A DNA stretch of 64,000 nt from Candidatus Omnitrophica bacterium UBA6233 (GTDB lineage Bacteria; Omnitrophota; Gorgyraeia; Gygaellales; Profunditerraquicolaceae), in the NCBI GenBank assembly GCA_002440965.1, contig DJWJ01000026.1:23439-87438 (forward strand), in the 5' to 3' direction. Positions 3,993 to 64,000 of the stretch are shown in pieces; the stretch's first letter is position 1, and each line of letters opens with the position of its first letter. Position numbers and translations under genes: made by a program. The notes below the pieces were generated by a model. It saw nothing but the letters and a program-made list of their open reading frames with translations. It ran no database searches and had not been told where the DNA came from.

Positions 3993-4075
3993 AAACACCC
4001 CCTTTTTTTAAGTTAAAACTAAAAGTAAAAAGTTGAAATCCAAAACCCTTTCTCTCCTTCCCCCTCCGTAAAAAA

Positions 4076-7276: not shown

Positions 7277-7280
7277 TTTT

Positions 7281-8153: not shown

Positions 8154-8174
8154 ATTTATTACTTAAATCCGAAG

Positions 8175-8320: not shown

Positions 8321-8322
8321 AG

Positions 8323-9631: not shown

Positions 9632-9692
9632 ATCTGTCCTCCTATAATATAGTCATTTCCGGCTATTTTCTTATCTAAAGGCGGAATATTAA

Positions 9693-9721
9693 AATTTAAC
9701 ATAAGTTACTGGAAGGGTCAA
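9693..9721 (-). promoter_or_regulatory. Candidate sigma70-type promoter (TTGACC-N17-TAAATT) upstream of the SBP/permease genes
   Basis: Read on the minus strand: TTGACC (9721..9716), 17 nt, TAAATT (9698..9693), in the 115-nt gap between the PilZ stop and the SBP start. Sequence match only. Confidence 0.25.
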
Positions 9722-9746: not shown

Positions 9747-10061
9747 TTAAACGGCTCTTAAAACCCTGGACATCCCCATAAAATCCGCTCTCTCCAAGCT
9801 TACCCCGATATTATACTCGCTAGGATTGACCATCCTTGACCAGGCAACTTCTCCCCGGGTATAGAATGGCTCGCCTTTGTCCGGAACATCCAGCCATATC
9901 TCTAGCGGGGTGCGAAGCCTTAATTCCTCCTTCGCCATAAATCCTATGCCCTTAGCGCTGATGTCCCTGGTCTCTCCGGAACCCTCCACACTTGCCCTCG
10001 GATCAATGAATCTTAAGGGGAACCTAGCCTGAAACCGTTCAAAGATTCTTCGGTCATCCAT
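9747..10061 (-). CDS. PilZ-domain c-di-GMP-binding protein
   Basis: 104 aa. It has an RxxxR motif (RRIFERFQARFPLRF) and a D/NxSxxG motif (DISAKGIGF). The SD-like GAGGGGG lies ~8 nt upstream of the ATG. It begins 40 nt after the giant ORF's stop. Confidence 0.8.
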   Translation of the reverse strand: MDDRRIFERFQARFPLRFIDPRASVEGSGETRDISAKGIGFMAKEELRLRTPLEIWLDVPDKGEPFYTRGEVAWSRMVNPSEYNIGVSLERADFMGMSRVLRAV

Positions 10062-10101: not shown

Positions 10102-13100
10102 CTACGGCTTTATTATATTCTTATTCTGTTTTTTTTCAACTTTTACCTTATTATTTTTCCCTTCGGCCAGGTTTCTCCATAACTGCTTGACTACATAATA
10201 ACTCTTCCTGGGAATGCGTTTATTCAAGCCGTTCTCCGTCTCTTCGGACACTGCCACAATCCCAAACCATTCCTCATTCATATTTTTATTGTATTTAGCT
10301 CTTATATCATGGTAGTAACTTCCGTTGGACCAGTTCGATTCGGTATTATGAGCCTTCCACCCGTCGCTGTTATTACATTCCTGGGCGGATTCATTATGCT
10401 TCCACCATTCATCTGTCCATTCAAACATTATCCCGCCTAAACAATTGCCCATGCCTTCTTTACTGCCGGCTAAATTTTCATAAATCTGACGCCACTGCAT
10501 CTCCAGGAAATACGCCTGCATATTCTGGTCTTCTTTGTTTAAATAGGCGTCATACGCGTCAGCGCCAAACTCTGCCACCAGAATCGGCTTATCAAGATCG
10601 GCCTTTACAGATTTGAATAAATTCCCGAAGGCCTTACCACGATAAATCATACAGGCGATTAAGTCAACGTCTTTTGTTACGGCCGCAGCCAAAGCTAGAT
10701 TCGTAATTTCACAATTACCTAAGGCTACCGGATGGTTAGGGTCTATTTTATGAATCTCTTTGGCCACTTCATTGACAAAAGAATAGTAAATCCTGGCGCG
10801 CATCTCGATTTGTTTCGAAGGATTCGGTTCTTTGTCGATTCCGCTGGTGCACCAAGGCCTAAATTGTCCGGAGAAAGAACGGTTATTTTCATTACCCAAA
10901 ATCCACATTAAGACTCCCGGTTCATCCTTATACCGATTAACCATTTCTAAAACTTCCCTTTTGATTTTTTCCCGGAAATCCTTAGCATTATACGCGGAGC
11001 AAGGCCCATCCCAGAGCCCCAAATCGTGGCCTAAAATAGTGCGGATACCATAAAGCTTGAAGAAATCCCTGATTACCTGCTTAACTGCCTGCGGATTCTG
11101 CCCAACCGTATAAATTCTGCCTGTATTCAAGCCCATATCTTGCATCAATTTTCCGTCGGTAATCCAAGGCTTACCCGGGTCAGACCACCAGTCATAATCA
11201 TAGTTCTGACCGATAGGTATAGGATTATAACAAACACCTTTAACAATATATGGCTTACGTTCGACTATCAACTGGTGATAGCTGTCTTTGGACTTATTGA
11301 TATAAACCTCGGGCTGAGGAACAGGAGAAATCTGCATTATAGCCATCAAAATAAGGAAAGCGAATAAAACCAAACAAAGCTTTCCTATCTTCTTAACTAT
11401 CCATTTTAATGGACAAAACAAATAACCGGAGACAAGAGCGGCTACGCAAACCAACGGTTTCAACTTCAAGGTAAGATTTCGTAATGCCAGCTTCGCATAT
11501 TCCCAAACAAGAGAATAAGGACGTTCGAATATTCTGGCCTGGGCTGCGATTGCTTCCGGGTCGCTGGAGAATTTTTCGTGGAAGGAGATTTGCGCGACTA
11601 TGAATCTTATTTCTTGAGGAGAAAATCCTAATTTGGCGAGCAGCTGTTCAGTTTCTTTTTTTCGGGCTTTATTCCAGGTTTTATTGGTAGCGATAGGATA
11701 ATCCAATATCGCGGCGTGCTCATCTTCGGTTAAATCTTGGATCAATTTTGCTAATCCTGTTCTTCCTTGCGGAGGCGCCTTAAGTTTACCTGAATAAATA
11801 AGATACCTTACTGCCGCTATCCTGAATAAAGCATTACCAAATTCATTGAACCGCAAAGAAATTCCCCGATGATCATAATAATCAAATTCGGCCTCATAAC
11901 AATCGCGGGCGGTGATAGCGTGCCCGTTCTGCCTGGATAGATTAATAGCGAATAATTTGGCTGCTCTGTATAAAGCAGGCGCTCCCCGCTTGATTCCGCC
12001 CTTATACCTTTCTATCGCCATTTTAGCCAGCCCGGGCGTAGCATATTTAGGAAGAGTCGCTTTCCCTATCGGCATAAAAGCTGCGAATTCTAATTTATCC
12101 CGGCTACCCTGGCCATTCTTATATTCCAACCCATATTCCTGGGAAATCTTTCCTGTTTTCTCCACTAAAAACGCGATCTTTTTTTCGTAAGCCATACTAT
12201 GAAAAGTATCGGCATTTTCTATAATACAATCTTTTAAGGCTTCTAAAGCTTTCTTGATTTTTTTGTCTTTTATAATAGCCAAGGAATAAAAATCTAAACA
12301 GGCCATGAAGAAAATGGCCAAGTCTGTCTTGTGCATCTTTAACCGGTTGTGCAATATTAAACTCCATACTTTCTTTTCTTTTTCCAGAAACCGTATATTT
12401 GGATTACCGTTTTCCCATAGTTTATATTCGATTAATAAACTCTGAAAAAGGGAAGATTCTCTACTATCTAATTCAATACCAAAGAATTTGGCCGTCTTGC
12501 GCAAAAACTGGCTTTTGTTTTCTCTTGTGTTCAATACCGCTTCTAATGCAAATCCGGGCGTAGGATATTTATAGACTATCCCTTTACCAAAAGGAACAAA
12601 AGCAGCTATTTCAAGTTTATCTTTTTCGCCATTGCCGTTGTTATAATTTAAATTATACCTTTGAGACAGCCTGCTTACCTCTGCTATCAACAAGGTTGCC
12701 TTTTTTTCTCTACGCAACTGTTTAAAGAAATGCCTTTTTTGGTACAGGAAAATAACTAATCCCCTGACAGCTTTATGTGTAACAACATCGCTGATGATTG
12801 TATTATCAACTAGCTTAACCCAGATTATCCATTGCGCGGCAATGCCGCCTTTGACTTTATTTAACTTATAAGAATAAAATACAGCTGATAATTCCTTAAT
12901 TTGAGCGATAATACCGGCATCCAAATGCGATTTTTCCCACGCCTTGTATTCGTTAACGGCATTGGTAAAACGCGCGCGCAGGCTTTCGGTAATTCTTTTA
13001 GATAGCTTTATACCAAAAGCATTAGCCCTCATAAGCAGAAGCGGATATTTCTTCTTTATTTGTCCTTGATCATGCATAAGCGCCTTTTCCAGTTCTCTTT

Positions 13101-16100
13101 TCACAATGCCCAGGGTGGGATATTTAGGAAAAACACCGCAGCCCATAGGCGTTAAAGCCGCAAATTCCAGCTTATCTCTTTCGCCTAACGCGCCATTATT
13201 ACCATACCCTAGACCATACTCTTCAGATAATTTATCCGCTTTTATCATTAAAACTCTTGTCCTGTATTCATAAGACATTGACTGAATATTACCTTTCTCT
13301 TTTTCCACATAATCCTTCAATGCCCACAACGCCCTTTTAGTCTGCGCGTCTTTAATCAAAGTTAAACCCTGGATATCCAACCATACCGATATGTAGGCGA
13401 CCGCATCTTTTCCTTTCTTATCTAACCTGTTACTCCTTAATAGTTCCCATAGCTTCTTTTCTTTCGCGATCAGATCTGCATCCTTTTGGGCGCTTTCCCA
13501 GTTGTTGTATTTGACCAGTATTATCTTGTACAGAAACCGGCACCCCTCGGTCAACCTGATGTTGAATGTCTTGGCTGCCCTGTAAAGCATCTGATCCCGG
13601 GCTCCGGATATCCAACTCTCTATTGCTAATCCGGGAGTATGGTATCTTGCGACTTTACCATACAACATTGGAGGCAAAGCCGCGAATTCCAGCTTATCTC
13701 TTTCTCCATTGCCGCAAGCATAATCCAAGCCGTAGCGCTTCGCTAACTCTTCGGCTTCCTTGGCCAAAAATCTTGCCTTGCCCTTGCGGCCTAATTTCAG
13801 GAAATATTCCTTGTCCAGGGATAAGGAAAAAATCAGTCTTTCAACCGCTTTCCTGGTAAGATAGCTGGAAATGGCCAGCTGGCTAAACAGCTTCATCCAT
13901 ACTATCCAGGGATAAATCGGATTTTTTGCATGAAAGAATTCCGTAAAGTTATTGCGCCGGTAGATATCCCAAATCTTTTCGGCCTGGCAGCGTAAATCCA
14001 GGGCTTCATTATCCTTATTATTATGCCTATACTCATCCACAGCTTTTTGATAGGAAGGCGGATTGGGAATGGATTTATTTAATAAGAAAAACTTGCTGGT
14101 TGTCTTGCTTGACCTGATAACAAACATGCTGCTGAAAAATCCGATAAATTTCCTGTCATCGCTTATTTTTCTCCTGACAGCTCCTAATACAGCCCTGCCG
14201 AATCTACTTTCATAGCCTCTCTTGAGCACCGATTCTTCAACATACTGTGCAACTTCACGGGAAAAATCAGCATTCGAGAATATAACCAATAATGCTGTTG
14301 TTAAACGAGATGTACACTCTTTTTTGGATTTCTCGGATAGAATATCTAGAATTACTTTAAACACATCTTCTTTTTTAGTTATGGTATTACCCACCCTATT
14401 CGCTATCGGTTTTTGATATTTTTGTTGGCCCGCTATCAACCTTAACCTCTTCAAAGATTTTTCTTCAATCTGCCTGACTCTTTCTTTTGTCAGACATAAT
14501 AAATCGCCGATTTTTTCAAGGGTCATTCTTCCGTTATCGAAAGAGAACAAGCCGTAACGCAGTATCAACACTATCCTCTCATCATCCTCTAATTTTTCCA
14601 ACATAACGCCTACGGCTTCCTTCAATATTGCCCTGCGGGTATTCTCCTGAGGAGAAGCAAACGTATTTTGTTCGATGAAACTTCCCTGGCTATCTTCGCC
14701 TTCCGAGCTGATTGGAGCATCCAATGATACAGGGTCGCGAATCTCAAGTAGCTTTTTGATTTTTTCTACAGGCAAGCTCATCCGCTGAGCCAGTTCTTCA
14801 GGAGCAGGTTCTCTTCTATATTCCTGTACGAACTTCTGGGAAATCTTCTCTAATTTATATTTTTTCTCCAACATATAAACCGGCGCCCGTATCATATGAT
14901 TCTTCTCCGAAAGTGCTCGGGTAATTGCCTGGCGTGTCCACCAAGAAGCATAAGTGGAGAACTTATTGCCTTTCTTATAATCAAATTTTTCGATAGCCGG
15001 GAACAATCCTAATCTTCCGTAGCCGAATAAATCATCGAATGTCATCCCGCAGCCAGGGTATTTTTTGATAATATCACCCACCAGCCCAAGATTACACATT
15101 ACCAGGCAGCCAGTAATGGTTTTTGTCTCTTCGGGGGCCTTTACCGCGTGAAGAGCTTTAAATAACTCAACCTCTTCTTCTCTGCTCAGGACGTAACGGA
15201 AATTTTTAAATCTAAACTGGGCCAATATTCTCCTAGCTAAGCCTAAGCCATCCTCTTTAATATTCTTAAACAGGACTTTTGCTAACCTCTCTGCAGCCCT
15301 TACGTTTTCTTTTTTATTAATTAAATGCCCGTGCTCATGCTCAAACAGTTCTATTAAAATGGCCTCTTGGTTTGCTTGGATAAGTTTGACTATTAATTCA
15401 AGGGGAATGATAATCTGGGAATTATAAAGGCAGGCGGCTATGAATCTTTCTATGCTATCATACAAAAGTAAGCCCGGAGGGCCTTTTGACCTGACATCCG
15501 AATCAGCAAGAAATAAATAAACATTCTCTTTATTGAGCCAGCGGATTAACTGGGGAGTCAAAGCCAACAACGCCTTTTTATCCTGAGGTAAATCCTTATA
15601 GCGAACAAGACGATTCTCTTTCTGTGCCTTGGAGATGACTTTCTTCGTCTGCTTCTTGGCTTTTTTATCCATAGCGCCTTCTTCATAAATTCCCAACCCG
15701 CAGGCAGAGACATCGGGATCTTCTTCTAACAACTCTTCAATTTTTGTCGTTTCCCGTCCTGAAGCAAACCAGGCAATGCCCACAGGATTAGGCAACTGCA
15801 ACAGCGTAAGCCGCTTTTCTTTAAGCGCAGAAACAACGGCCCGGGTTGAAACGGACACGATTAAGAATGCTGAAAATATTGAAAGGAATAGCATCGCAGT
15901 AAAAAGATTGTTGTAAGAAACAAAGGCACATATAAATAAAGTTATCCCGGAGAAACTGATAATGAAAGGTATTAATGCGCGGCCACGATGATCCGTTAAC
16001 CGGTTCGGGCCAGCTTCCTGAAACGCGCGGCTAAAGGCGCTTTCCGGGCCTCTATTCAACGCTATATCTTTAATTCGCCGGGCCACTCCTTCGGTAAATC

Positions 16101-19100
16101 CTTCGTCGGATAAAACTAACCGCAATGCGCTGGCTAGCCTGCCAAAAACTACGCTATTAGCCTTTTGATTCAAAATATCCACAATCTTTCTCAATACGGC
16201 CTCTCTATCGGCTAGAACATTCTCCGGAATCTCAACAATAGGTTTATTTTCTTTAATGGAGGCCTTGAATATCCTTTTTGACTTCTTGATTGCCGCCTCC
16301 TCTATCTGCCTAATTCTTTCCTCGCTTAAACACAGAAAATTCCCTATTTCTTTACGCGTCTTTGTTTCGCCAGAAGCGCTATATAATCCGTAACGCAAAA
16401 CCAATATTACCCGCTGGTTATCACTTAACTGTGAGAGTAATGTCCTTGTATTTTCTTTTAATATATACCGGTTCGCATTTACTCTGGGAGAAACGAATTT
16501 GTTTTGTTCAATTAAATCTAATAGGCTGTCTTCCCCTGCACCAAATGGAGAATCCAGGGAAATGGGGTCACAAGTTATAATGAGATTTTTAATAGTCTCT
16601 TCGGAAAAATCGGTAATTTCGGCTAACTCTTCCTGCGTAGGATCTCTGCCGAATTCCTGGGTAAATTTCTCAGAAATTAAGCGTAATTTAGATTGCTTCT
16701 TCTGCATATACATCGACACCTGCATCTTATGGGATTCCTTCCTGGACGCTCGGGTAATCGACTGGTATATCCACCAACTGGCATAAGTTATAAACCTATA
16801 ACCTTTTTTATAGTCATATGTTTTAGTAGCCCGCAATAACCCGAGATATCCTTCGCTAACGAATTCTTTTGTTCCTCTCCCACATTTTTTAGCTGTATCA
16901 ATAATAAATCCTAAATTGCACCTTAGTAGGCAATCGAGAATATCTTTTCTTTCGGAAGAACTGATCCCGTTCTCCAGGGCTTTGAACAATTCGATTTCTT
17001 CCTCTTGATTCAAGAGATACCCGCCGCCACATTTCAATTCTTCCAATATTCTTTTAGCCAGATGCCAGCCGTCCTCTTTGATAACGCTCAATAACTCTCT
17101 TGCTAATTCCTCCCCTTCGCCTGTGTCTTCCCGGCCGCCCAGAAGATGCCTCTTCTCGTGTTCAAAGAGTCTTATTAAAAGACTCTCCTGGCCTGCTTGA
17201 ATAAGTTTTGCGATTAATTCAAAGGGGATATAAATGGCGGAGTCGTAAGCGCAGGCGAGTAAAAATCTATCTTTATTTTCATACCAAAGGAATCCCGGAG
17301 GACCTTTTGACATTATCTTAGATGCAGGGAGGACTAGCTGGATATTTTCTTGGTTTAACCAATTCAATAGTTGAGGAGTAAGGACCAATTCCTGTCTTTT
17401 ATCCTGCGGCAAATCCTGATAGCGGAAGATGCGATTCTCTCTTAAGGCCTTGAAGATGATTTTTTCTGTTTCCTTTACCCCCTCCGCGTCCATCGCGCCG
17501 TCGGAAGTATAAATTCCCAACCCGCAGGCAGAATGGTCAGAAGAATTATGGATATCATGATATTGTGTTAGCTGCAAAAGGAAGTTCTTAAATTTTGGAC
17601 TGAAATTGTCAGATAATCCCAATGCCCACCTTAACACAATATCAAAAATATATTCTTCTCTGGTATTCCCTAAAATTGTTTCGGCAGGAGGATTAATCAT
17701 AAAAGTAGCGTGGTCGCAAGTAAGGATGCGGCCGTCGACACTGATGAATAAAAATATTTTATCCGGGCGGCGATGAGAGAAAATATCATCCATACTCAAT
17801 GGTTCCGCTTCCGGCAAAGACTTTGCCCCACCCTGAGCGATAAGATGATTTATATGAAACATTCTTTCGCCCCATATTATATATCTTTCATATAAGCCGT
17901 ATTTTTTAAGAATACGGAACCGGTTTTCCGCACGAGATAACCTTATATTATATGCAGCTCGCAGCCTTCCTTCGCGCCACCTATAACTTTCCTCAATGGC
18001 CTTGATAACCTTTACCATATCTTTGTCTCTTTTTTTCGCCTCTTTTTCATGCCACTGGTCAAGGGAAAAAACTAACTCAACATTATCAGGAATTTTGCCT
18101 AAAAATTTGTCCATCTCTTCATGGTCTTCTGGGAAAGATAAACCATTGGTATCTATATGAACCTCGCCGATGTGCTTGCTGGCGGACCAAAGAATTTCCC
18201 AGAAATCAGCCGAAGGCTGGTTATCCGTATAATTTTTCTTTTTGTAGGCAAAAGGCTCTCCGCCGACAAAATACACACTGGGAAATCCATCTAACTGCCG
18301 GATTATCCTTTTAATCTGATCCATAGGCAAGTCTACGTTAGGATCTTTCTCAATAACATCCTTGGCAATGCAAAATCTACATCTATATGGGCAGCGATGC
18401 GTTATCATAATATTGATATTCGAGTCTAATTTCGGAAACTCCGTCTTTAGGAGATCGAATAAAATCGCTACTCTTTGAGGGGATTTATTTATCATCTGGG
18501 CGGCCTGCTTTCCAACATCGGCTAAGACGCCGGCAGTGAGTTTTTGGATATTCCGGTCTTCGGCTTTTAATGCCTGGATAGCCGCCCGCAGAGTTCCATC
18601 CGAAAGTTTAACTACCCATGGTTTATCTGTCTGGCTTAAAGATTTAACTATCAATCTATAAGTGCGACTGATTTTTACGAAGTCCATAAGATAGGTAGAA
18701 TAAGGGGATCGCGCGCTGTCTTCGATAAACTCAGACTTAGCGATAATATAGTAGATATTTTCTTGCCGGTTTGCAGGTTGCCATCCTAATTTTGCTAAAA
18801 CTTCTATTGCGTCTTTCCAGCGATAAAGAAATCCGCTTTTTAATACTCCGAAAAGAAATTCTTCCAAAGCCCTAAGAAAAGGCTCGACTGCAGATGGGCC
18901 GATTTTAATCAAAGTTTCTATTATGCAATTACAAACACTCCAATTTTCTTGTCCGAATCCAGAGGCGGCTTTAAGCTCATTCTCAACAACAAGGTCATTT
19001 AAGGCTTTAATAAGGCAAGGAATTATGGGTGGGCCGATTTTCACTAATGTGTCCATTGTAAGATGACGGAAATTCCAATCATCATCGTTTAATGCTCCAA

Positions 19101-55100: not shown

Positions 55101-58100
55101 AATCAAACAATACCATAACATCATCCCTATCATCCATCCATTTGACATTGCCTGTTTTCATATCCCCATGGATAACAGCTTGAGGCAGTTTTTTATATTT
55201 TTCTAAAGATAAATTATTTTTCAAAGAAGCAAACTGACTAAAAATAAAATCGGCATTATCCAAGAAGAGTTGTTCTGACCTTGAAAAATTTCCGCCTTTC
55301 AATATTAACCGTTGTTTTAAATTTAAGAAATCTTCTTCGGCAGTAGCAATATCAATTGCTAATAATTCCCGTTTCTCTCCCTTAGGTATAAAACCGGACA
55401 GAACATTATGGATTGAAGCCATCATTTTACCTAATGAGAAAAACTGTTCCGGACGCATTTGTGCCCAGGTTATTTCTCTTCCATCCGGAGTATACTCTTC
55501 TAAGAACCAATACCAGTCCTTTATTTTTAGCAAATAGCCTACATGCCTTGTTTGCTGTATTCGAGCAACAGGAAGACCTTGTGCATGCAAATATAATTGC
55601 ACTGAAACAATAAAATCGGCTTTTAAAGAATCGTTCGTTGCGTACTTTAAAACAAATTTTCCTTTCGGCGAATAAATTAGCAAAGGCTTTCTTAAAGAAG
55701 TGCCGCCGATTAAATCCTCATATTGAACTTGATTCAGTGAATTTACCCCTAAATCGTAATTCTGTATGATTGCATTGGCTTTTTCCTGCCCGGTTACGAC
55801 TACTTTTCTCAAATAATCTTTAATCCTCATTGAAGATAATCGCCAAAGAGGAGTATTATCAGCATCTGTTTGCGAAGACGAAGGAAAACTATATTCCTGG
55901 ACAAGCTGCGCTGCTTTAATGGCTGCGCCTCTGGCGGCATTGGCATCTTTAACCAAAGTCACTTCTATTATCTCTTGTATGTTTAAATCTTTGCTGTATT
56001 GGTTGACATACTTCTGCAACAATCTCTGACGTATCTTGCCTGTCCCGGCTGCGGTTGTTCCGCCGCCAAAGGCAAATTTTGTCTTACCAGTTAACTTATA
56101 GAGGAATATCACATGCTGGGCTTCGCGCTGCTCGACAATATCCCATACTTCTAAGGATAACTTCACTAGCTCGCTGTCGCTATCCAGTTTCAAGGAGGTA
56201 TCCAGAGGATTTATGCCGCTTGCGGCTAAGCCGATATGCTCTACTTCTATTTTACTTATCCCAAGTTGTTTTAATTTTTCAGTTAACCCTATCTGATTGG
56301 CTACTGCCATGATCCCGCGGATGCTGCCTGCCCAATCCTCATAAGAGCCTAGCGGTGAATTCTCTGCCCTTGATTCTATACCATCTTTTACGTTGAATAT
56401 CTGATGGCCGCCTTCATTGGCCCCAGCCACTACTTCACCGTTTTCTATCTGCTGCACGCCTATTCCTGAGCCGGTAATTAATATAACCGCATCTTTAAAG
56501 CCTGCCAGCTGGGCTATACTTAAGCCCCATCCGGTCATGTCATTGCCGTAACCAAGCAAGGCATCCCCTAAAATATTGCGCAGATCCTCAATAAATGTGT
56601 TTGCCTCGGACAGGCCTGTTCCCATATCTTTTCCAAAGCCCCGGCTTAATTCGCCCAGGCTTGCCATACGGTCATGGGCGTAATCCGGATTTCCCGGAAG
56701 ATTAATAAAGAGCGCGCTAACCTTTCCATACTTGGCTTCTACCGCTGTTTTTAGTTCCTGGACAAAATTTACCAGCCGATTGCTGAATTCCTTACCGCTA
56801 TCGCCAACTTCTAGTTTTTCATATTTAAAGGCGTAACGGTAGCGCAGCGATTTATCCTGTTTCCTGAGTTCTTTCTCATTTGCTGCCTCAGGCGACAATT
56901 CATCAGTTACATCCTTACCGTCTACCAATACGCATGATTTTATGCCCTGTCCGCCTACATCAAGGCCTATGGTAACCATTGTCTTAGGCAGGGTTATTTT
57001 TCTGTTTTTATAACACTGCTCTATTAATTCTTTTAACCCGATTGGGCTTTTTGCCTTAAAATCTTCCGGCTTATATATTATCTCTACTCTATTTCCGGCA
57101 TTGGCTTTGCTTAATAATGGCGCGCCTGTTTCCTTAAAGTATTTATCTAATGATTTGATTGCTGCTTCTTCGATGTCGCCTCTGCAGATTGATGAATCGT
57201 TTTCGTAGGCCTCCACATAGATATGCTCTGTCGGGCCATTACCTAAAGCCAACCCTTGGGCGTATAATTTGGCGATGTAGCTGCGGTATATTGTTTCTGC
57301 CTGGCCCTTATTTAGCTTGGCTGGATCAGGAATTCTAATTTCTACTGCCCGGCCGTTATCCGCGGTTAATCTCACGGTTATTACTTTGGCAGACTGCTTA
57401 ACCACAGACTGGATATTCTTTTCGATGTTGATATATTCTGTGGAAGTCCCATTTATTTTTGGAAGCGCTTTCCTGGAAGGTAAAATAAAAGATTTTTGAG
57501 CTGCTGCAGAGCTTTTCCTATTGTCAAATGTGTCTGCATCGTCGGTTTTTTGTTTTTCAACATTCAGTACAGATACTTTCTGCAAAAGTTCTTTGGCGGC
57601 AGAGCGGATCTCAGGAGTGGCGCCGGGATTACTTAAAACGGCATCCATCTTATCGGTAACGAACCTTATTTCATTACCCATCACCAAAGGAACAGCATAG
57701 ATAATCAAGAGGGCTTGCTCTTCAAATGTTAAAGGCGATGAATAGTCTAAGAGGTTTAAAGATCTGGCGGACGCCTGATCACGGCTTTCAAAACCGGCCA
57801 TTAGTTCTATAGCCTGAAACTTTCTTTCCAAAACACCGAATGTCCCTAAAAGGCCTTTAACGGTATCTTTATCCTTAAATGCAATCAGGGCGTCTAAGGC
57901 TCCGCGGAAATCCTCGGGGGAATCCAGCCGGCAATATAGTTCATAAACCACTTTTTCGCGAAGCCAGCTTGCCAGAGACCCCTGCGAATGCTTGAGCCAC
58001 TTTAACCACTTAGGCCAGATAGATTCTGGCGTAGAACAGATGGTTTCATTAATCACCTTAGTAGCTATCTTGTCTTCCAGCCAGCGCGATGCATCGTTCC

Positions 58101-61100
58101 AACACAAAAATACCAGTGTCAGAGGAATTGCGGCACTTAAAAATAACCCAAACGGGGTCATATGAGAAGAACTATGGGGTATATATGAGGTTGCGGCCAA
58201 GGCGGGGGCGGCGAAGAAAACAGCGCCGGCAATCGCCATTAAGGCTAAAAGCAAAACCTGGGTGGAGCCTTTCTGATTATCAAAACCTATATCATCGCTT
58301 TTTTGTTTTTCAACATTCAGGACAGATACTTTCTGTAAAAGTTCTTTGGCGGCGGAGCGGATCTTAAGGGTAGCGTAGGGATTCCTTAAGACAGCATCCA
58401 TCTCATCGGCAACAAATTTTCTGTTATTCCCCATCACCAGGGGCACAGTTTCAAGGATAAGAAGCGCCTGCTCTTCAAAGGTCAAAGGCGCTATGTCATC
58501 CAAAAGCCCGAGGAATTGACCGGGGAGCCGGTCGTGGCTTCTAAAACTACCCATCACACTAACCGCTTGAAGTTTCTTTTCCAGCATACCGAAGGGGCCT
58601 AAAAGGCCCTTGACGGTATCTTTGTCTTTCAATATAACGATGGCGTTTAACGCTCCGCGGAAATCCCTGAAAGAATTCAGCCGGCAATATAACTCATAAA
58701 CCACTTTTTCGCGAATCCAGTTTGCCAGAGGGCCCTGTGAATGCTTGAGCCATTTCAACCGCTTAGGCCAGATAGATTCTGGCGCGGAATACCCGACAAT
58801 CACCTTAGCGGTTATCTTATCTTTCAGCCAGCGCGATACATCGCTCCAGCATAAAGAAACCACTATCAGAGGAATAATAACTCTTAAAAATAACCCAAAC
58901 GGCGTAATATGAGAAGAGGTGTAGGGTATGGATGAGGTTGCGGCAAAGGCGGAGGTGGTAAGGAAAATAAATCCTAAGAAAATACCTAGCACCTTGAGTT
59001 TATTCTGCAACTCAGAAATATTTTTTCTGGCTCTCTGCTGGGCTTCTGCATTTGCCTCCATTCTAACCTCTCTGAGATGGCGAGCCTTATCAAGGGTAAT
59101 TTCTGCATTGCATTGGACCTCCAAGCGCTTTCCATAGCTCTCTCCTGTCAAGCCTATCTCGAGCTGTTGGTTGGAATTACGCATTTCTATCTCTAAAACA
59201 GTCTTCGTATAATCTGCGATTATCTTATATGCCTCTGCTCCTAAATTGCATAATTCCTCTTTTGCGCGCTCCAGCTTGAATTCCAATGCCTGTTTCTTGA
59301 GTTGCTCTATATGCTCCGGTTTAGCGCTGGGGTCATCGGCATAGCTTTCATGCAAAGCTACATGCTCTTTGGCAAAACTAATAAGCAATTCTTCTTCATC
59401 GAGCAGGTTAAAGAGCCTGGCTATTCTTTCTCTTTCAGAGGGATTTTGCCAATCCCGGCTGTTGGTTAGAGGTAATTTACGAATCTCTTCTGAGGAGATA
59501 TCGTATTGCTCTCTAAGGAAAATAAGCTCGTCTCTATTTACTTTTTCACCGGCACGGCGGGCTTTCCTTTTGCCGCTAACAATAAGGTAGTTGAGTAAAA
59601 CTGCGGAATAGAGCGTTTCGTCTACCATCTCTGCCATATAGGCTAAATCAGGATTTTTCTCTTGGCATTCCAAATAAATATCATGCATAAACCCGGGTGT
59701 GATGTTGTGGAAATCACCTTCATCAAATTTATTGAACGTCTGTTTTAAAGAATTGAAGGAAGCGCAGGAAACTTCCAGCTTGCGCTTATCTCCGGGTGTA
59801 AGTTTTATATCCAGCTTTTTAAATAATTTTAATATAGTGCTCGTCTTAGTTTCTGTGCTGCTGGAAAGGCCAGACACAACCTCTTTGGCAATAAACATGA
59901 TATCTTTTTGCGCCTGGAGAACGATTATCTCTTTATTACGAAGATTAGGATATTTCCGGAGTAAGCTTGCGTAAGCAAGGATGATTTGCAGCGCTCTTTC
60001 AATCCTTTCCTTGCCAAATTTATATCCGGGTGCGCTAAGGATAGTCTTTACTTTTTTTGTATCTAAGTTACCCTTGGCATCACTTATCTTAGCAGCATAA
60101 TGGATTTTTTTAGTTGCTTTGTTGTAATAGACTATCCTTTCCCCGCAATAGTCTTCCAGCGCTTTAACTACTTGAGCCGGCCCTTTGAATAGCCTGAACC
60201 CTTTACAGCTAAAACTAAACAGTTCCTCGGAAAGCGGTTTCTTGAAGAGCAAAAATAAAATTCCCACGACAGTTAAAGTTATTATTCCAAAGAGGGATTG
60301 CACTGGGATAGAGTTTATTGGCCCTGCGGCAAATGCGGAGGTGGCGAAGAAAAAGATAGCTGCTAATAAGGTACCGGCAATCGCCATTAAGGCTATAAAC
60401 AAAACCTGAGCGGAGCCTTTTTGATTATCCGGCCGGGGAGCAGGGATGTGGCGAAATAAGGAAAATTTACCGGCCTTCTCTGGCATAAAGGCCAAGAATT
60501 CTCTTTCTACTCCCAGGCGTGAACGTACGATACCCTTGAAGCCTGCTGCTTCCCGGGCCAAGCGGATAAATAAATCAATTCCATCTACCTCGTCTACGCC
60601 TTTGCCGAAGTTCTCGCCCACGCTTGAGCCTAAAACAATTAAATTAGTAAAACCTTCCTTAGGATAGGCTTCTTTGAAGGCTCGCATAGCCATACCTAAA
60701 TCTCTGCCGGCTTCGCTGATAAAATCCAATGCCAGCCTATCTCCATTTTGGGCCTTTTCTTCAAGATGAGCATCCTCCAAAGGTAAAATTTCGCCGGCCC
60801 CGGAGAATTCTTGCCATCTCTTGGCTAACCCCGGCCCCGAGAGATAATCCTCCAGGCTCCTTTCGTCCGGAGTCAATTCTCCCGGATCTTTCTGGCCCAA
60901 CCAACTGCCATCCGGCTTGGGTTGATATCTCCATTCTTTTGTCTTTAGATTATAGATAAGATGATGCCCTAACTCGCCCAAGCCCCAGCTTACTTTATCG
61001 GACTTATAACAAGGCTTGCCGTCCTTTAGAATACCTGCTCCTACGCCTGTGCCTAAAATAAGGAATGTGCCGCTAACCAGAATTTGTTTATTTGGATTAT

Positions 61101-64000: not shown

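What the first reader, a model, noticed from the sequence alone, without database searches (positions are those of the whole stretch)
10102..64000. 53.9-kb stop-free ORF encoding a >=17,939-aa mosaic membrane mega-protein that is still open at the window edge
There is no in-frame TAA/TAG/TGA from 10105 to 64000. In sequence of roughly 40% GC that cannot occur by chance, and the other five frames show normal stop density. Counted from the first in-window ATG the product is 17,939 aa, among the largest prokaryotic ORFs. The 26 codons upstream of that ATG (63922-64000) are also stop-free, so the gene is larger than the window. The protein is a chain of hydrophobic-helix clusters alternating with blocks of enzymatic and regulatory domains. 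Normally these are separate cytoplasmic proteins: nucleoside and sugar kinases, LeuA-like, radical SAM, sigma-70, ABC ATPase, GGDEF, vWA/AAA+. Glycan- and lipid-degrading modules are mixed in: GH13, a GH94-like domain, a clan GH-A domain and patatin. Several internal stretches look like N-termini of formerly independent proteins, for example MKRGSALGVVILS…ALA signal-peptide-like segments. This points to serial in-frame gene fusion. It matches the architecture reported for giant genes of Omnitrophota-type ultra-small predatory bacteria, which have many TM regions, carbohydrate-active domains and a carbohydrate importer nearby. This particular domain complement would need checking against those sets.
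Basis: partly seen in the sequence, partly recalled or inferred. Interest (0 to 1): 0.95.

Follow-up and report, generated by a model that had tools for sequence, protein, structure and literature searches.

The report
Giant fused multi-enzyme gene, Omnitrophota
A real, uninterrupted gene of at least 54 kb (about 84-88 kb in full) from an uncultivated Omnitrophota bacterium joins some twenty normally separate proteins, including a sugar-uptake ATPase, a glucan phosphorylase, kinases and two sigma factors, into one membrane-tethered chain; giant genes of this type are already described for this phylum, so it is striking but not a new kind of thing.

Summary
The minus strand is stop-free from 64000 down to a TAG at 10102-10104 (17,965 codons; chance about 1e-507). 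All 35 tiles of 500 codons use the neighbours' codon usage in this frame only. The same locus occurs in 18 independently assembled contigs, and alleles differ with pN/pS about 0.25. A sibling contig carries a complete 27,940-aa call.

The organism is Candidatus Omnitrophota. The protein is a mosaic of end-to-end copies of free-standing proteins: GH161 phosphorylase, MalK/UgpC ATPase, LeuA-like, ROK, GGDEF, two RpoD-like sigma factors, radical SAM, patatin and others. TM hairpins and clusters separate them, and a GH158-like glucanase domain ends the chain. Relatives gain and lose whole cassettes without ever breaking the frame. In-frame ATGs carry no ribosome-binding sites.

With its neighbours (PilZ, an ATPase-less sugar ABC importer, GH158-like paralogues) the locus reads as a beta-1,3-glucan uptake and catabolism unit. 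This matches the published "multi-enzyme" class of Omnitrophota giant proteins, so it is a new member of a known kind.

New here are a rare, recurring about 165-aa module with an HExxH motif and a weak minigluzincin-like fold, conserved junction motifs, and internal signal-peptide-like hairpins ending in AxA. Whether the chain is cut after translation stays open.

The parts
10102..64000 (-). Giant ORF: 17,965 open codons, 5' end outside the window, TAG stop at 10102-10104
   Evidence: The window is 100% identical to JGI 3300001592 Draft_10000140, where the gene runs to the contig end (18,423 aa). A sibling contig has a complete 27,940-aa call.
62890..63999 (-). Module 1 (aa 1-370): C-terminal two thirds of an NMNAT/uridine-kinase-like unit; its start lies beyond the window
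   Evidence: 44-57% identical to free-standing proteins of about 580-670 aa in Omnitrophota/Anaerolineae, which end where this module ends. NCBIfam uridine-kinase P-loop hits are all far below the curated cut-offs, E down to 4e-9.
62806..62853 (-). Junction motif 'AAPKSLILSSGKALSK'. Further copies at 57454-57501 and 53365-53412; 'TSLLLRKE' variants at aa 9005 and 9330
   Evidence: my estimate is about 0.3 KS[LF][IL]L matches expected by chance; 3 were seen, each with similar flanks. Homology with relative L086 starts exactly at this motif.
60610..61518 (-). ROK-family sugar kinase module (aa 828-1130)
   Evidence: Pfam ROK E 8e-14; PDB glucokinases, weak
57538..58986 (-). Two tandem copies (68% identical) of an about 240-aa spacer, each starting with a TM hairpin whose first helix ends in AxA. 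A related hairpin lies at 60244-60417.
   Evidence: The same spacer flanks different cargo in L086.
55081..55704 (-). APH/CotS-like phosphotransferase module (aa 2766-2973)
   Evidence: Pfam APH E 1e-6; NCBIfam CotS E 2e-9, far below the curated cut-off
52291..53391 (-). LeuA / homocitrate-synthase-like catalytic module (aa 3537-3903)
   Evidence: Pfam HMGL-like E 3e-78 plus HCS_D2; PDB 3rmj E 2e-65; NCBIfam
48454..51609 (-). Full-length GH161-type (beta-1,3-glucan) phosphorylase module (aa 4131-5182)
   Evidence: PDB 9qqk 'GH161A' and 9h8v, E 1e-193; chain residues 2-1030 of 1039 covered. NCBIfam GH149 beta-1,3-glucan phosphorylase E 2e-33, below cut-off. 97% identical in L086.
44860..47211 (-). 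Two multi-helix TM clusters (aa 5597-5810, about 6 helices; aa 6245-6380, 4-6 helices), each opening with a 'RGSALGVVILS...PALA' signal-peptide-like helix
   Evidence: hydropathy and charge pattern only; no dedicated TM predictor was run
39256..40545 (-). vWA (aa 7819-7965) plus AAA_5 MoxR/CbbQ-like ATPase (aa 8116-8248) pair
   Evidence: Pfam VWA E 4e-8, AAA_5 E 2e-22; PDB CbbQ, weak
35254..36279 (-). NHL repeats (aa 9241-9324) followed by a 7-8-helix TM cluster (aa 9346-9582)
   Evidence: Pfam NHL E 5e-16
31816..33417 (-). FabD-like acyltransferase (aa 10195-10497) and GGDEF diguanylate cyclase (aa 10568-10728; 'GGEEI' site)
   Evidence: NCBIfam fabD E 2e-13 (below cut-off) and GGDEF E 9e-50; Pfam GGDEF E 3e-44; PDB WspR/PleD-type
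29314..30441 (-). Complete MalK/UgpC-type ABC ATPase with C-terminal OB regulatory domain (aa 11187-11562). Hydrophobic hairpins flank it (aa 11103-11145 and 11605-11664).
   Evidence: PDB MalK/MsmX E 1e-112. 58% identical over residues 4-367 of 367-aa free-standing Omnitrophota proteins; Walker A GPSGCGKST, signature SGGERQ and Walker B FLFDEP are intact; 'KSV' sits where Met1 would be.
28282..28839 (-). Patatin-like phospholipase module (aa 11721-11906)
   Evidence: Pfam Patatin E 2e-18
26011..26874 (-). DHH / Mn-dependent pyrophosphatase-like module (aa 12376-12663)
   Evidence: NCBIfam PRK05427 E 1e-19, below cut-off; Pfam DHH E 2e-4, below cut-off
23128..23412 (-). GH13-like fragment match (aa 13530-13624); weak
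   Evidence: Pfam Alpha-amylase E 2e-5, 24.8 bits against a cut-off of 22, covering only profile positions 30-105. The region is 70% identical in L008.
19177..21273 (-). HEAT repeats (aa 14243-14361 and 14851-14941) on either side of a 5-helix TM cluster (aa 14376-14543) and module copy m1
   Evidence: Pfam HEAT_2 E 4e-39
19462..19944 (-). Recurring module, copy m1 (aa 14686-14846); HExxH degenerated to HEDRD; sits 5 aa upstream of the HEAT repeats
18043..18408 (-). Radical SAM module (aa 15198-15319; CxxxCxxC 'CPYRCRFC')
   Evidence: Pfam Radical_SAM E 8e-13
17065..17559 (-). Recurring module, copy m2 (aa 15481-15645); HEKRH intact; sits 13 aa upstream of sigma factor 1
16255..17028 (-). Sigma-70 module 1 (aa 15658-15915; regions 1.2-4, RpoD-like)
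   Evidence: Pfam r2/r3/r4; NCBIfam RpoD hits E 1e-50, below the equivalog cut-offs
15844..15978 (-). 45-residue uncharged segment read as a TM hairpin between sigma 1 and m3 (aa 16008-16052)
15247..15750 (-). Recurring module, copy m3 (aa 16084-16251); HEHGH intact; used for the structure model
14437..15192 (-). Sigma-70 module 2 (aa 16270-16521; 44% identical to module 1)
   Evidence: PDB SigA E 3e-57, chain residues 111-356 of 368; NCBIfam
11932..15969 (-). Strain-variable in-frame segment (aa 16011-17356: TM hairpin, m3, sigma 2 and the C-terminal repeats). Absent from the about 99%-identical alleles L001/L003/L005.
   Evidence: The more distant L007 has both sigma copies.
11905..14106 (-). 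Four to five diverged repeats of about 180 aa with no database match (aa 16632-17365)
   Evidence: no Pfam or NCBIfam hit
10105..11379 (-). Signal-anchor-like TM (aa 17541-17563) plus a GH158-like clan GH-A domain (aa 17565-17965; 'GNEN' and 'AEFG' catalytic-type motifs)
   Evidence: PDB 9oro GH158 E 3e-8. Pfam GH2_C E 4e-4, below cut-off. Paralogous to the lipoprotein-like gene at 1574-2896.
9747..10061 (-). PilZ protein, 104 aa (RRxxxR and DxSxxG motifs present), immediately downstream of the giant gene
   Evidence: A PilZ gene sits ahead of the importer in 48 further Omnitrophota loci.
6428..9702 (-). Sugar ABC importer without an ATPase gene: solute-binding protein (8323-9702) and two permeases (7281-8153, 6428-7318)
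   Evidence: SBP_bac_1, BPD_transp_1 x2. No MalK homologue in any fetched Omnitrophota locus, each reaching at most 10 kb either side of the importer/GH genes.
1574..6421 (-). Exported glycan-degrading set: 781-aa GH158/GH2_C-like protein (4076-6421), 386-aa internally duplicated CBM-like protein (2838-3998), 440-aa GH158-like lipoprotein candidate (1574-2896)
   Evidence: 9oro E 5e-13; 6pal E 2e-9

Best explanation
This is the 3' two thirds of a genuine single gene of an uncultivated Candidatus Omnitrophota bacterium. The full gene is about 84-88 kb: 27,940 aa in a sibling strain that lacks 1,346 aa present here.

The gene arose by joining formerly independent genes end to end in one reading frame. 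It keeps evolving by in-frame gain, loss and exchange of whole cassettes at recurring junction sequences.

It is translated from one upstream start as one chain. Transmembrane hairpins and clusters stitch that chain into the cell membrane at intervals. The ATP-, GTP-, SAM-, acetyl-CoA- and RNA-polymerase-dependent cargo modules stay on the cytoplasmic face. These include MalK, the GH161 phosphorylase, ROK and other kinases, the LeuA-like module, GGDEF, radical SAM, the pyrophosphatase-like module, patatin and two RpoD-like sigma factors. The last module, a GH158-like glucanase behind a signal-anchor helix, is exported.

Together with the genes just downstream, the locus forms a beta-1,3-glucan capture, import and phosphorolysis unit. 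Those genes are a PilZ c-di-GMP receptor, a binding protein and two permeases with no ATPase gene, two GH158-like paralogues and a CBM-like protein. The giant protein supplies the candidate energising ATPase, the intracellular phosphorylase, the sugar kinase, the c-di-GMP source and dedicated sigma factors, all in fixed 1:1 amounts next to the transporter.

Shown: the reading frame is real, coding and under purifying selection; module identities; end-to-end fusion; cassette turnover; taxonomy; synteny. Inferred: topology, the glucan pathway, the MalK-importer pairing, and the view that the chain works without obligatory cleavage.
For: Reading frame: no stop in 17,965 codons. Codon usage favours this frame in 35 of 35 tiles.

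Independent recovery: 18 contigs from ENA, JGI, NCBI and Logan carry the locus, including a complete 27,940-aa call on a 127.7-kb contig.

Selection: pN/pS is 0.22-0.27 between alleles. An in-frame 1,346-aa indel separates 99%-identical strains.

Taxonomy: the best genome hit is a Candidatus Omnitrophota MAG at 91% aa identity, and nearly all of the 79 related loci carry Omnitrophota/Omnitrophica labels or the 'uncultured Planctomycetales/Planctomycetia' labels of TPA assemblies, including V. archaeovorus.

Modules are complete copies of free-standing proteins: GH161 covers chain residues 2-1030 of 1039; MalK covers residues 4-367 of 367 at 58% identity to free-standing Omnitrophota MalK; SigA covers 111-356 of 368; the LeuA catalytic domain is present; module 1 matches free-standing proteins of about 600 aa.

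Cassette turnover without frame loss: L086 is 21.2 kb with no stop. It shares aa 385-1212, the hairpin spacers and GH161 (97%). It carries other cargo (GNAT, kinase, Maf, ARMT1, Dus) and lacks aa 2155-3929, with breakpoints at the junction motifs. L007 and L008 show further in-frame insertions and deletions. GC3 per 500 codons ranges 0.35-0.59, 2.6 times the binomial sd.

No internal starts: 0 of 287 in-frame ATGs have AGGAG/GGAGG upstream, while neighbouring genes do use such sites. Promoter- and terminator-like sites are not enriched.

Topology: hairpins have positively charged flanks on both sides and short uncharged loops. The last helix follows a KWIVKKIGK loop, and its paralogue has a lipoprotein-type signal peptide.

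Pathway logic: GH158-like domains, GH161, ROK, MalK and an importer without an ATPase gene.

Synteny: in 38 of 48 other Omnitrophota loci the ORF just upstream of PilZ and the importer runs off the fetched sequence, and 20 of those show at least 1,000 open codons.

Literature: a multi-enzyme, TM-anchored class with ROK, radical SAM, HEAT and NHL content and GH2-type flanks.
Against: There is no transcript, ribosome-profiling or peptide evidence for this gene. Expression of an Omnitrophota giant protein is reported only for V. archaeovorus, and peptide support there was thin on re-analysis.

Topology rests on hydropathy and charge by hand. Several clusters have an ambiguous helix count, and published predictors disagree on such proteins.

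The single helix at aa 14065-14081 would put one HEAT block outside the cell.

Free-standing 367-aa MalK genes are normal in the phylum and are unlinked to the importer everywhere. The embedded MalK may therefore be an extra copy and not the importer's ATPase.

Many cargo modules have nothing to do with glucan use (LeuA-like, APH, FabD-like, patatin, radical SAM, vWA/AAA_5), so the pathway reading explains only part of the chain.

GH158 and GH13 assignments are weak (E 3e-8; 25 bits). A sigma factor or a MalK dimer working while tethered in a 28,000-aa chain has no precedent. That favours the processing rival.
Confidence: 0.7

Rival explanations
1. Bacterial polyprotein. The chain is made as one piece and then cut into separate proteins that act on their own (free sigma factors, a free or hairpin-anchored MalK, and so on). 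Cutting would be done in cis or trans by the recurring HExxH module, by signal peptidase I at the AxA ends of the internal signal-peptide-like helices, or by N-terminal C39/S8 peptidases of the kind reported for other giants.
For: A 165-aa module recurs three times here, each 5-19 aa upstream of a cargo domain (HEAT, sigma 1, sigma 2). It is very rare: 45 of 1.84 billion representative proteins. It sits almost only in long multi-domain proteins, with up to 4 copies each, and again lies just upstream of cargo such as a protein kinase.

Six hairpins open with n-h-c signal-peptide-like helices ending in [SP]A[FL]A|A, a pattern conserved in L086. Short conserved motifs mark module junctions. Sigma factors and MalK dimers are easier to picture once released. 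West-Roberts et al. already suggest cleavage.
Confidence: 0.3
2. Surface effector for prey attack. As proposed for Omnitrophota giants in general, most of the chain is displayed outside the cell and serves adhesion and cell-wall digestion of a host or prey.
For: The C-terminal GH158-like domain and the flanking exported GH and CBM-like proteins fit this reading. NHL and HEAT repeats and vWA could mediate binding. The literature favours this reading for signal-peptide-bearing giants, and GH2-type flanks recur there.
Against: Most identifiable cargo needs cytoplasmic substrates or partners: ATP (MalK, kinases, AAA_5), GTP (GGDEF), SAM plus a reductant (radical SAM), acetyl-CoA (LeuA-like), phosphate and oligosaccharide (GH161), and RNA polymerase (two sigma factors). 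Hairpin charge patterns put both flanks inside. No SecA_DEAD, dockerin, TSP3 or C39 domain is found in the 17,965 aa available.
Confidence: 0.12
3. Stop-less operon. The ORF is one transcript from which ribosomes start independently at many internal sites, so the cell makes ordinary-sized proteins.
For: Module sizes equal those of free-standing proteins, and one internal segment begins with Met (MKRGSALGVVILS, aa 6241).
Against: None of the 287 in-frame ATGs has an AGGAG/GGAGG site upstream, and loose matches are rarer than in the other frames (1.7% against 3.5-4.5%). The MalK, LeuA and GH161 modules have no Met where the free-standing proteins start. Without stop codons, every ribosome that starts would read on to the end anyway.
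Confidence: 0.04
4. Artefact or dead gene: a chimeric or collapsed assembly, indels lost in polishing, or a decaying pseudogene that happens to be open.
For: The data are metagenomic and the window ends inside the gene. No reads were available to me.
Against: The same uninterrupted ORF is recovered in 18 contigs from different samples and assemblers, two of them 100% identical over 12-20 kb. Relatives at 99%, about 86% and about 50-70% identity all keep one frame. Purifying selection is seen. Coding statistics hold in every tile. The chance of such an ORF is about 1e-507.
Confidence: 0.02

Closest known systems
Omnitrophota giant proteins, 'multi-enzyme metabolic cluster' / TM-only inner-membrane-anchored class (Nielsen & Lui 2026, bioRxiv 10.64898/2026.06.07.730766)
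   Same: Same phylum. ORF above 10,000 aa. Many different Pfam families tile the chain and none dominates. ROK, radical SAM, HEAT and NHL content. About one TM helix per few hundred residues. GH2-type glycosidase genes alongside.
   Different: That survey does not report sigma-70, MalK, GH161 or GGDEF modules. It contains none of the words sigma, fusion, cleav-, linker or HExxH. It rates the carbohydrate-import signal as weak, whereas here an importer lies directly downstream and the synteny recurs in 48 other loci.
'Archaeovorin' and 'Dockerin-type' giant proteins (West-Roberts et al. 2023, bioRxiv 10.1101/2023.11.21.568195; type: the giant protein of Velamenicoccus archaeovorus LiM)
   Same: Omnitrophota. 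Numerous TM regions. Glycoside hydrolase content. A carbohydrate importer nearby. The open question of post-translational cleavage.
   Different: None of the hallmark domains appears in the 17,965 aa available: SecA_DEAD, C39/S8 peptidase, glycosyltransferases, NUDIX, dockerin, TSP3. The missing N-terminal part, about 10,000-11,000 aa, could still hold some of them. In V. archaeovorus the homologous importer/GH operon is not preceded by the giant gene.
Minigluzincins and M48/M56 zinc peptidases (selecase 4qhf, proabylysin 4jiu, projannalysin 4jix, HtpX, BepA, Ste24, BlaR1)
   Same: The recurring module's C-terminal half has a small beta-sheet followed by a helix bearing HExxH and a following helix with conserved Glu. 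These proteases are its best structural matches.
Viral and eukaryotic polyproteins and multi-enzyme fusions (picornavirus-type polyproteins; AROM, CAD; from general knowledge)
   Same: Several complete enzymes are encoded in one frame with no internal starts, which fixes their stoichiometry.
   Different: The scale is about 10-100 times larger. Membrane hairpins separate the modules. The cargo is functionally heterogeneous. No protease or cleavage sites have been demonstrated.
Beta-1,3-glucan utilisation systems combining GH158 endo-glucanases or GH161/GH149/GH94-clan phosphorylases with importers (family activities from my own knowledge of CAZy; PDB names)
   Same: An exported GH158-like enzyme, a binding-protein-dependent importer, an intracellular GH161-type phosphorylase and a sugar kinase form a coherent route from glucan to sugar phosphates.
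   Different: Here half of the pathway is embedded in one giant membrane protein. The substrate is untested. GH158 similarity is partial (about 150-170 residues aligned).
Shared, unlinked sugar-importer ATPases (MsmX/MsiK type; general knowledge) and ABC transporters with fused nucleotide-binding domains
   Same: The importer operon has no ATPase of its own. The MalK-type ATPase is encoded elsewhere and is membrane-tethered by adjacent helices.
   Different: The ATPase is an internal module of a chain above 17,000 aa (aa 11187-11562). Pairing with this importer is inferred from proximity only.

Membership tests
Omnitrophota giant protein, multi-enzyme class | Encoded in an Omnitrophota genome | tested here: met
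   best genome match is Candidatus Omnitrophota MAG STD1_202 (91% aa). Nearly all of the 79 related loci are labelled Omnitrophota/Omnitrophica or, in TPA assemblies, 'uncultured Planctomycetales/Planctomycetia'; they include V. archaeovorus LiM.
Omnitrophota giant protein, multi-enzyme class | Single ORF of at least 10,000 aa | tested here: met
   17,965 open codons in the window; 27,940 aa complete in a sibling contig.
Omnitrophota giant protein, multi-enzyme class | Many distinct Pfam families tile the chain, none dominant by copy number | tested here: met
   about 17 non-overlapping domain types at or above Pfam cut-offs. The highest copy numbers are HEAT (a few) and sigma-70 (2).
Omnitrophota giant protein, multi-enzyme class | Transmembrane helices along the chain (TM-only or SP+TM topology by DeepTMHMM) | tested here: inconclusive
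   about 35-56 hydrophobic segments in about 12 clusters, by hydropathy and charge only. DeepTMHMM was not available and the N-terminus is missing, so SP+TM cannot be told from TM-only.
Archaeovorin-type giant protein | SecA_DEAD / SecA preprotein-binding domain | tested here: not met
   No such Pfam hit in any tile. The N-terminal part, about 10,000-11,000 aa, was not available.
Archaeovorin-type giant protein | N-terminal C39 or S8 peptidase near a signal peptide | not testable with these tools
   The gene's 5' end lies outside the window. The tools could not return the upstream part of the longer contigs.
Archaeovorin-type giant protein | Glycosyltransferase, methyltransferase and NUDIX content | tested here: not met
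   None detected in the window part.
Dockerin-type giant protein | Dockerin and TSP3 repeats | tested here: not met
   No hits.
GH161 phosphorylase | Full-length sequence similarity to characterised or solved GH161 enzymes | tested here: met
   9qqk 'GH161A' and 9h8v, E 1e-193 and 1e-160 for overlapping query pieces; chain residues 2-1030 of 1039 covered.
GH161 phosphorylase | Catalytic residues and beta-1,3-glucan phosphorolysis | not tested
   I did not inspect residue-level alignments. Activity needs an assay.
MalK/UgpC-type ABC importer ATPase | Walker A, Q-loop, signature, Walker B and H-loop, plus the C-terminal regulatory OB domain | tested here: met
   alignment: GPSGCGKST, SGGERQ, FLFDEPLSNLD, VTHDQ. 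Pfam ABC_tran plus OB_MalK. PDB MalK/MsmX E 1e-112.
MalK/UgpC-type ABC importer ATPase | Partners with the adjacent permeases | not testable with these tools
   Only proximity and the lack of an ATPase gene in the operon. Free-standing MalK genes exist in the phylum.
Sigma-70 family (RpoD-like) | Regions 2, 3 and 4 in order | tested here: met
   Two modules with Sigma70_r2, r3 and r4. SigA E 3e-57. Scores are below the NCBIfam equivalog cut-offs, so they are family members and not assignable RpoD orthologues. No region 1.1.
Minigluzincin / M48-M56 zinc peptidase (for the recurring module) | HExxH plus a downstream Glu as third zinc ligand | tested here: inconclusive
   HExxH is intact in 2 of 3 window copies and 24 of 54 copies overall. 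Glu is conserved at +10, +14 and +16. Metal binding is untested.
Minigluzincin / M48-M56 zinc peptidase (for the recurring module) | Zincin fold | tested here: inconclusive
Minigluzincin / M48-M56 zinc peptidase (for the recurring module) | Match to a curated peptidase sequence family | tested here: not met
   No Pfam peptidase hit even at E up to 10.
GH158 (clan GH-A) endo-beta-1,3-glucanase (C-terminal domain and two paralogues) | Sequence similarity to solved GH158 and the clan GH-A catalytic Glu pair | tested here: inconclusive
   9oro E 3e-8 (giant C-terminus) and 5e-13 (781-aa protein), but only about 140-170 residues align. 'GNEN' and '[AST]EFG' motifs are present in all three. The Pfam GH2_C hit is below cut-off.
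NRPS/PKS megasynthase (the usual giant bacterial gene) | Condensation/adenylation or ketosynthase/ACP modules | tested here: not met
   Only a weak FabD-like acyltransferase. No KS, C, A or carrier domains.
PilZ c-di-GMP receptor (downstream gene) | RxxxR and D/NxSxxG motifs | tested here: met
   Sequence: 'RRIFER' and 'DISAKG'. PF07238 is on record.

The most novel reading that the evidence does not exclude
The giant ORF is a true bacterial polyprotein with its own release system. A previously undescribed domain of about 165 aa is found almost only inside giant proteins and sits immediately upstream of cargo. It has an ACGxG strand and a minigluzincin-like HExxH core. Under this reading it acts as a latent, self-cleaving 'releasing peptidase', and internal signal-peptide-like hairpins ending in AxA are cut by signal peptidase. 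Membrane-tethered sigma factors, a MalK ATPase and metabolic enzymes would then be set free on demand from one translation product. This would be a prokaryotic counterpart of viral polyprotein processing and of regulated intramembrane release of sigma factors.
Probability: 0.2. Interest if true: 0.85.

Novelty: new member of a known kind. Interest (0 to 1): 0.55.

Why it matters
Giant Omnitrophota genes are among the longest reading frames known, and nobody knows how they are made, inserted into the membrane or used. This example is unusually readable, because many modules are clear, complete copies of well-understood cytoplasmic proteins.

That content argues against a purely extracellular effector role for this class. 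It points to a membrane-tethered 'pathway on a string' tied to a sugar importer.

Two sigma factors and an ABC ATPase inside the chain turn 'one protein or many?' into a sharp question: they work either tethered or after release.

The close alleles and mosaic relatives give natural experiments. They show that selection keeps the frame through cassette exchange.

The junction motifs, the AxA hairpins and the rare HExxH module give concrete sites to look for cleavage in proteomic data.

Tried and rejected
- Rfam at gathering thresholds and tRNA scans of the whole window found nothing.
- Internal ribosome-binding sites: none.
- Promoter- and terminator-like sites inside the ORF are at shuffle expectation.
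- DNA tandem repeats: only the NHL pair within the ORF.
- I tried to recover the full-length protein or the upstream DNA. The 5.8-billion-protein word-index search returned only free-standing homologues at 57% identity or less and no giant protein. The metagenome scan returned a single relative, L086, and not the source contig. The N-terminal part, about 10,000-11,000 aa, therefore stayed unseen.
- The recurring module had no hit in the word-index search.
- jackhmmer from the L086 'cap' found only one further copy.
- Pfam at E up to 10 on ten cap segments chosen by eye gave no peptidase family. The only suggestive hit was CLCA_N at E 0.04.
- Profile searches did not lift the other caps above noise. 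I therefore do not claim that every junction carries a zincin-like cap.
- The first AF2 run with 3 sequences was unusable (pLDDT 53).
- The afdb50 fold library was unavailable.
- The idea that the module is specific to sigma factors was rejected: 44 of 45 homologous proteins have no sigma domain.
- A cysteine-switch reading of the ACGxG motif got no support: Cys and intact HExxH co-occur in only 6 of 26 copies.
- My first synteny script was faulty and was replaced.
- The giant gene does not precede the importer in V. archaeovorus.

Full report
**1. The observation.** On the minus strand one frame is free of TAA, TAG and TGA from the window edge (64000) down to a TAG at 10102-10104. That is 17,965 codons. 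Within the window the other five frames hold 713-1,595 stops. Over the ORF span the two other frames of the same strand have 0.07-0.08 stops per codon. From base composition the chance of such an opening is about 1e-507. GC is 43%. A codon-usage score trained on the seven ordinary genes downstream is positive in the ORF frame and negative in both alternatives in every one of 35 consecutive 500-codon tiles. The large unannotated stretches are therefore coding too. Within the ORF only one short DNA tandem exists, the NHL repeat pair. There are no Rfam matches at gathering threshold and no tRNA genes.

**2. Is it an assembly artefact?** The small PilZ protein encoded just downstream is found on 18 contigs from ENA, JGI, NCBI and Logan assemblies. 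The window is 100% identical to JGI 3300001592 Draft_10000140 (122,492 bp), where the giant gene runs into the contig end (18,423 aa). It is also 100% identical to a Logan contig over 11.8 kb. ENA contig k141_413108 (127,679 bp) carries a complete gene call of 27,940 aa. Alleles that are 99% identical differ by substitutions with pN/pS of 0.22-0.27. They also differ by one large in-frame difference: window aa 16011-17356 (a TM hairpin, module m3, sigma factor 2 and the C-terminal repeats) are missing from L001/L003/L005, and the frame continues. By that arithmetic the gene of the window strain would be about 29,300 aa if the rest is colinear. Mis-assembly, lost indels and pseudogene decay are effectively excluded, although I saw no reads.

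**3. Whose gene is it?** A genome scan with the C-terminal 965 aa returned 79 loci. The best is a Candidatus Omnitrophota MAG (91% aa). Nearly all are labelled Omnitrophota/Omnitrophica, or 'uncultured Planctomycetales/Planctomycetia' in TPA assemblies. They include Velamenicoccus archaeovorus LiM.

**4. What is in the chain?** The evidence comes from Pfam on two offset sets of 1,000-aa tiles, NCBIfam, and sequence searches of the PDB. In order, with amino-acid numbers from the window edge:
- an NMNAT/uridine-kinase-like unit (1-370);
- ROK sugar kinase (828-1130);
- three TM hairpins with spacers of about 240 aa (1195-2154);
- APH/CotS-like kinase (2766-2973);
- LeuA/homocitrate-synthase catalytic domain (3537-3903; E 3e-78);
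- a full-length GH161-type phosphorylase (4131-5182; 9qqk/9h8v E 1e-193, chain residues 2-1030 of 1039);
- two TM clusters (5597-5810, 6245-6380);
- vWA plus AAA_5 (7819-8248);
- NHL repeats and a 7-8-helix cluster (9241-9582);
- a FabD-like domain (10195-10497);
- GGDEF (10568-10728; E 3e-44);
- a complete MalK/UgpC ATPase with its OB domain (11187-11562; E 1e-112), flanked by hydrophobic hairpins;
- patatin (11721-11906);
- a DHH/pyrophosphatase-like domain (12376-12663);
- a weak GH13 match (13530-13624);
- HEAT repeats around a 5-helix cluster (14243-14941);
- radical SAM (15198-15319);
- sigma factor 1 (15658-15915);
- a TM hairpin (16008-16052);
- sigma factor 2 (16270-16521; SigA E 3e-57);
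- four to five unknown repeats of about 180 aa (16632-17365);
- a signal-anchor-like helix followed by a GH158-like clan GH-A domain (17565-17965; 9oro E 3e-8; GNEN and AEFG motifs).

Roughly half of the residues still have no annotation.

**5. Fusion of once-independent genes.** The MalK module aligns with residues 4-367 of free-standing 367-aa UgpC/MalK proteins of Omnitrophota at 55-60% identity. All nucleotide-binding motifs are intact, and 'KSV' stands where their Met1 would be. Module 1 matches free-standing proteins of about 580-670 aa that end exactly where the module ends. GH161 and SigA are likewise covered almost end to end. GC3 varies between 0.35 and 0.59 along the ORF, 2.6 times the binomial expectation, which fits parts of different origin or age.

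**6. Cassette turnover in frame.** Locus L086 (JGI Ga0074199_1000173) is 21.2 kb without a single stop in one frame. It shares window aa 385-1212 (88%), the hairpin spacers (80-87%) and GH161 (97%). It has GNAT, kinase, Maf, ARMT1 and Dus modules where the window has others, and it jumps directly from the spacer to the GH161 region, lacking window aa 2155-3929. Similarity begins exactly at a short motif, K[SI][LF]ILxSGKALSKKI. That motif recurs in the window at aa 383, 2167 and 3530, each at a module border. L007 and L008, more distant orthologues, show further insertions and deletions of hundreds to thousands of residues, always in one frame. Together with the strain-level indel, this shows strong selection for an unbroken frame and a modular mode of evolution.

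**7. One translation unit.** Neighbouring genes use Shine-Dalgarno-like sites, for example AGGAGG before the binding-protein start. None of the 287 in-frame ATGs in the giant ORF has AGGAG or GGAGG upstream, against 7 of 493 and 2 of 86 in the other frames. Promoter- and terminator-like matches are at shuffle expectation. With no stop codons, any internal start would read through to the end anyway. A stop-less operon is therefore unlikely.

**8. Topology (inferred).** Hydropathy finds about 35-56 hydrophobic segments in about a dozen clusters. The two-helix hairpins have Lys/Arg-rich flanks on both sides and short uncharged loops, which places both flanks in the cytoplasm. Several larger clusters can be read with an even helix count. 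The last helix follows the strongly basic loop KWIVKKIGK. It aligns with the lipoprotein-type signal peptide of the paralogous 440-aa gene, so the GH158-like end domain is probably outside. The cargo argues the same way. ATPases, kinases, a GTP-using cyclase, a radical SAM enzyme, an acetyl-CoA-using synthase, a phosphorylase and two sigma factors can only work in the cytoplasm (established biochemistry). [quoted passage not shown] Helix counts in some clusters are ambiguous, and no dedicated predictor was available.

**9. The locus as a functional unit (inferred).** Directly downstream, on the same strand, lie:
- a canonical PilZ protein;
- a sugar-binding protein and two permeases, with no ATPase gene;
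- a 781-aa GH158/GH2_C-like protein (9oro E 5e-13);
- an internally duplicated 386-aa CBM-like protein;
- a 440-aa GH158-like lipoprotein candidate.

From my knowledge of the CAZy families, GH158 enzymes are endo-beta-1,3-glucanases and GH161 enzymes are beta-1,3-glucan phosphorylases. The simplest route is as follows. Outside the cell, glucan is cut by the GH158-like domains. The fragments are taken up by the ABC importer, energised by the embedded MalK. Inside, GH161 phosphorolyses them and the ROK kinase phosphorylates the sugar. The GGDEF module and the adjacent PilZ protein would form a c-di-GMP link, and the two sigma factors would provide the transcriptional output.

None of the fetched Omnitrophota loci has a MalK gene, each locus reaching at most 10 kb either side of the importer/GH genes. 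PilZ precedes the importer in 48 further loci. In 38 of those the ORF just upstream of PilZ runs off the fetched sequence, with at least 1,000 open codons visible in 20. V. archaeovorus is an exception.

There are caveats. Free-standing MalK genes are the rule in the phylum, so the pairing is not proven. Many modules (LeuA-like, APH, FabD-like, patatin, radical SAM, vWA/AAA_5) do not fit the pathway.

**10. A recurring, rare module.** Three copies of a segment of about 165 aa (aa 14686-14846, 15481-15645, 16084-16251; 44-55% identical) each lie 5-19 aa upstream of a cargo domain: HEAT, sigma 1 and sigma 2. A profile search of 1.84 billion representative proteins found only 45 proteins at E<1e-3. 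Most are long fragments (up to 7,252 aa) with up to four copies. In one of them a copy again directly precedes cargo, a protein kinase. The module is not tied to sigma factors.

The consensus is ACG[LIV]G...SPPxxLWYxSxxRFLxA...YxPxxLI...LLxxIxxHExxHLxxxxE[DN]xxEAExLA. H1 is kept in 38 of 50 copies, E in 43 of 50 and H2 in 25 of 50. HExxH is intact in 24 of 54 copies.

I also saw similar 'strand - helix - HExxH-like' endings at other module borders, for example HELVH at aa 7070, HEISH at 10121 and HELISH in L086 right before the junction motif. These did not reach significance with profiles.

**11. Internal signal-peptide-like hairpins.** Six clusters open with a basic n-region, a hydrophobic core of about 16-23 residues and a [SP]A[FL]A|A end (aa 1195, 1670, 1911, 5597, 6245, 9346). 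The pattern is kept in L086 although the sequences differ. They resemble signal peptidase I substrates. They are paralogous repeats, so they are not independent evidence, and I could not run a signal-peptide predictor.

**12. One protein or many?** Both preprints leave this open. West-Roberts et al. suggest cleavage by N-terminal C39/S8 peptidases and found only sparse peptide support for the V. archaeovorus giant on re-analysis. Neither text mentions HExxH, sigma factors or fusion. My evidence shows single-frame translation. It does not decide what happens afterwards. I put about 0.55 on a chain that works largely intact as a tethered array and about 0.3 on obligatory processing. The remainder goes to limited or conditional cleavage and the minor rivals.

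**13. Comparison and novelty.** The gene fits the published 'multi-enzyme metabolic cluster' class of Omnitrophota giant proteins in phylum, size, domain diversity, TM content and GH flanks. Within the part available it lacks the hallmarks of the Archaeovorin and Dockerin types. It is not an NRPS/PKS. It is therefore a new member of a known kind.

What I could not find in the two papers:
- embedded RpoD-like sigma factors and a complete MalK;
- the GH161/GH158 pairing with the adjacent importer;
- direct evidence for end-to-end fusion and in-frame cassette exchange at defined junction motifs;
- the rare HExxH module.

These are leads and not yet findings of a new kind. I score interest at 0.55. 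The object is spectacular and real, and the details bear on an open question, but a specialist in this phylum would not be surprised by its existence.

Noticed in passing
window 10112-10139 (-): A near-consensus sigma-70-type promoter match (TTGAAA, 16 nt spacer, TATAAT; 11 of 12) lies inside the last codons of the giant ORF, about 50 nt upstream of the PilZ start. The PilZ-importer genes may have their own promoter.
   Followed up: no
window 2780-2818 (-): A 16-bp perfect-stem hairpin followed by a T-rich tail sits at the junction of the 386-aa and 440-aa genes. It lies within the stretch that would encode the signal peptide of the 440-aa protein. It could be a terminator/attenuator or a chance effect of coding sequence. 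The start of the 440-aa gene is called differently in different contigs (416, 423 or 427 aa).
   Followed up: no
window 2838-3998 (-): The 386-aa secreted protein has two internal repeats of about 170 aa (YSDxxARGNHYIPSGWMGDYGD...FYARGAKGGE). It has no Pfam family on record, is conserved next to the GH158-like genes across Omnitrophota, and is probably a new carbohydrate-binding module.
   Followed up: no
L086:18851-21211 against window 48454-51609: The GH161 module is 97% identical between the window and L086, while the other shared segments are 80-88% identical. This suggests recent exchange of this cassette, or much stronger constraint on it.
   Followed up: partly
window 36000-44000 and 53000-56500: Compositional patchiness inside one ORF. 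GC3 is 0.50-0.59 over aa 6501-9500 (the vWA/AAA_5/NHL region) and 0.35-0.37 over aa 2501-3500 (the APH/HD region).
   Followed up: partly
proteins P0001, P0002, P0006 (Omnitrophota homologues of module 1): In smaller multi-module Omnitrophota proteins the border after the uridine-kinase-like unit reads 'K[AS]SSAG' / 'KSAAG', and one protein ends with it. In the giant the borders carry 'KSSAAAQKSFIL' / 'AAPKSLIL'. A shared linker or sorting motif is possible.
   Followed up: no
L018:3177-3911 and L022:3241-3979: Some Omnitrophota loci carry two tandem PilZ genes between the long upstream ORF and the importer.
   Followed up: no
window 11905-14106 (-), aa 16632-17365: Four to five diverged repeats of about 180 aa (motif ...GERDKLEFAA..P.G....KY.TPG...) have no match in Pfam, NCBIfam or the PDB. 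Their number differs between strains.
   Followed up: no
window 32509-33417 (-), aa 10195-10497: A FabD-like malonyl-CoA:ACP transacylase domain (NCBIfam E 2e-13, far below cut-off) lies directly upstream of the GGDEF module, with no other fatty-acid or polyketide domains nearby.
   Followed up: no
window 1-1601 (-): A further gene runs off the low end of the window. It is called as 551-571 aa with a faint TPR_6 hit in sibling contigs and is followed there by a free-standing 427-aa ROK kinase. The genome therefore has both a free and an embedded ROK.
   Followed up: no
whole window: GC skew is negative on the plus strand in almost every 2-kb bin, and all called genes are on the minus strand. 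This is consistent with one long co-oriented, probably leading-strand, block.
   Followed up: no
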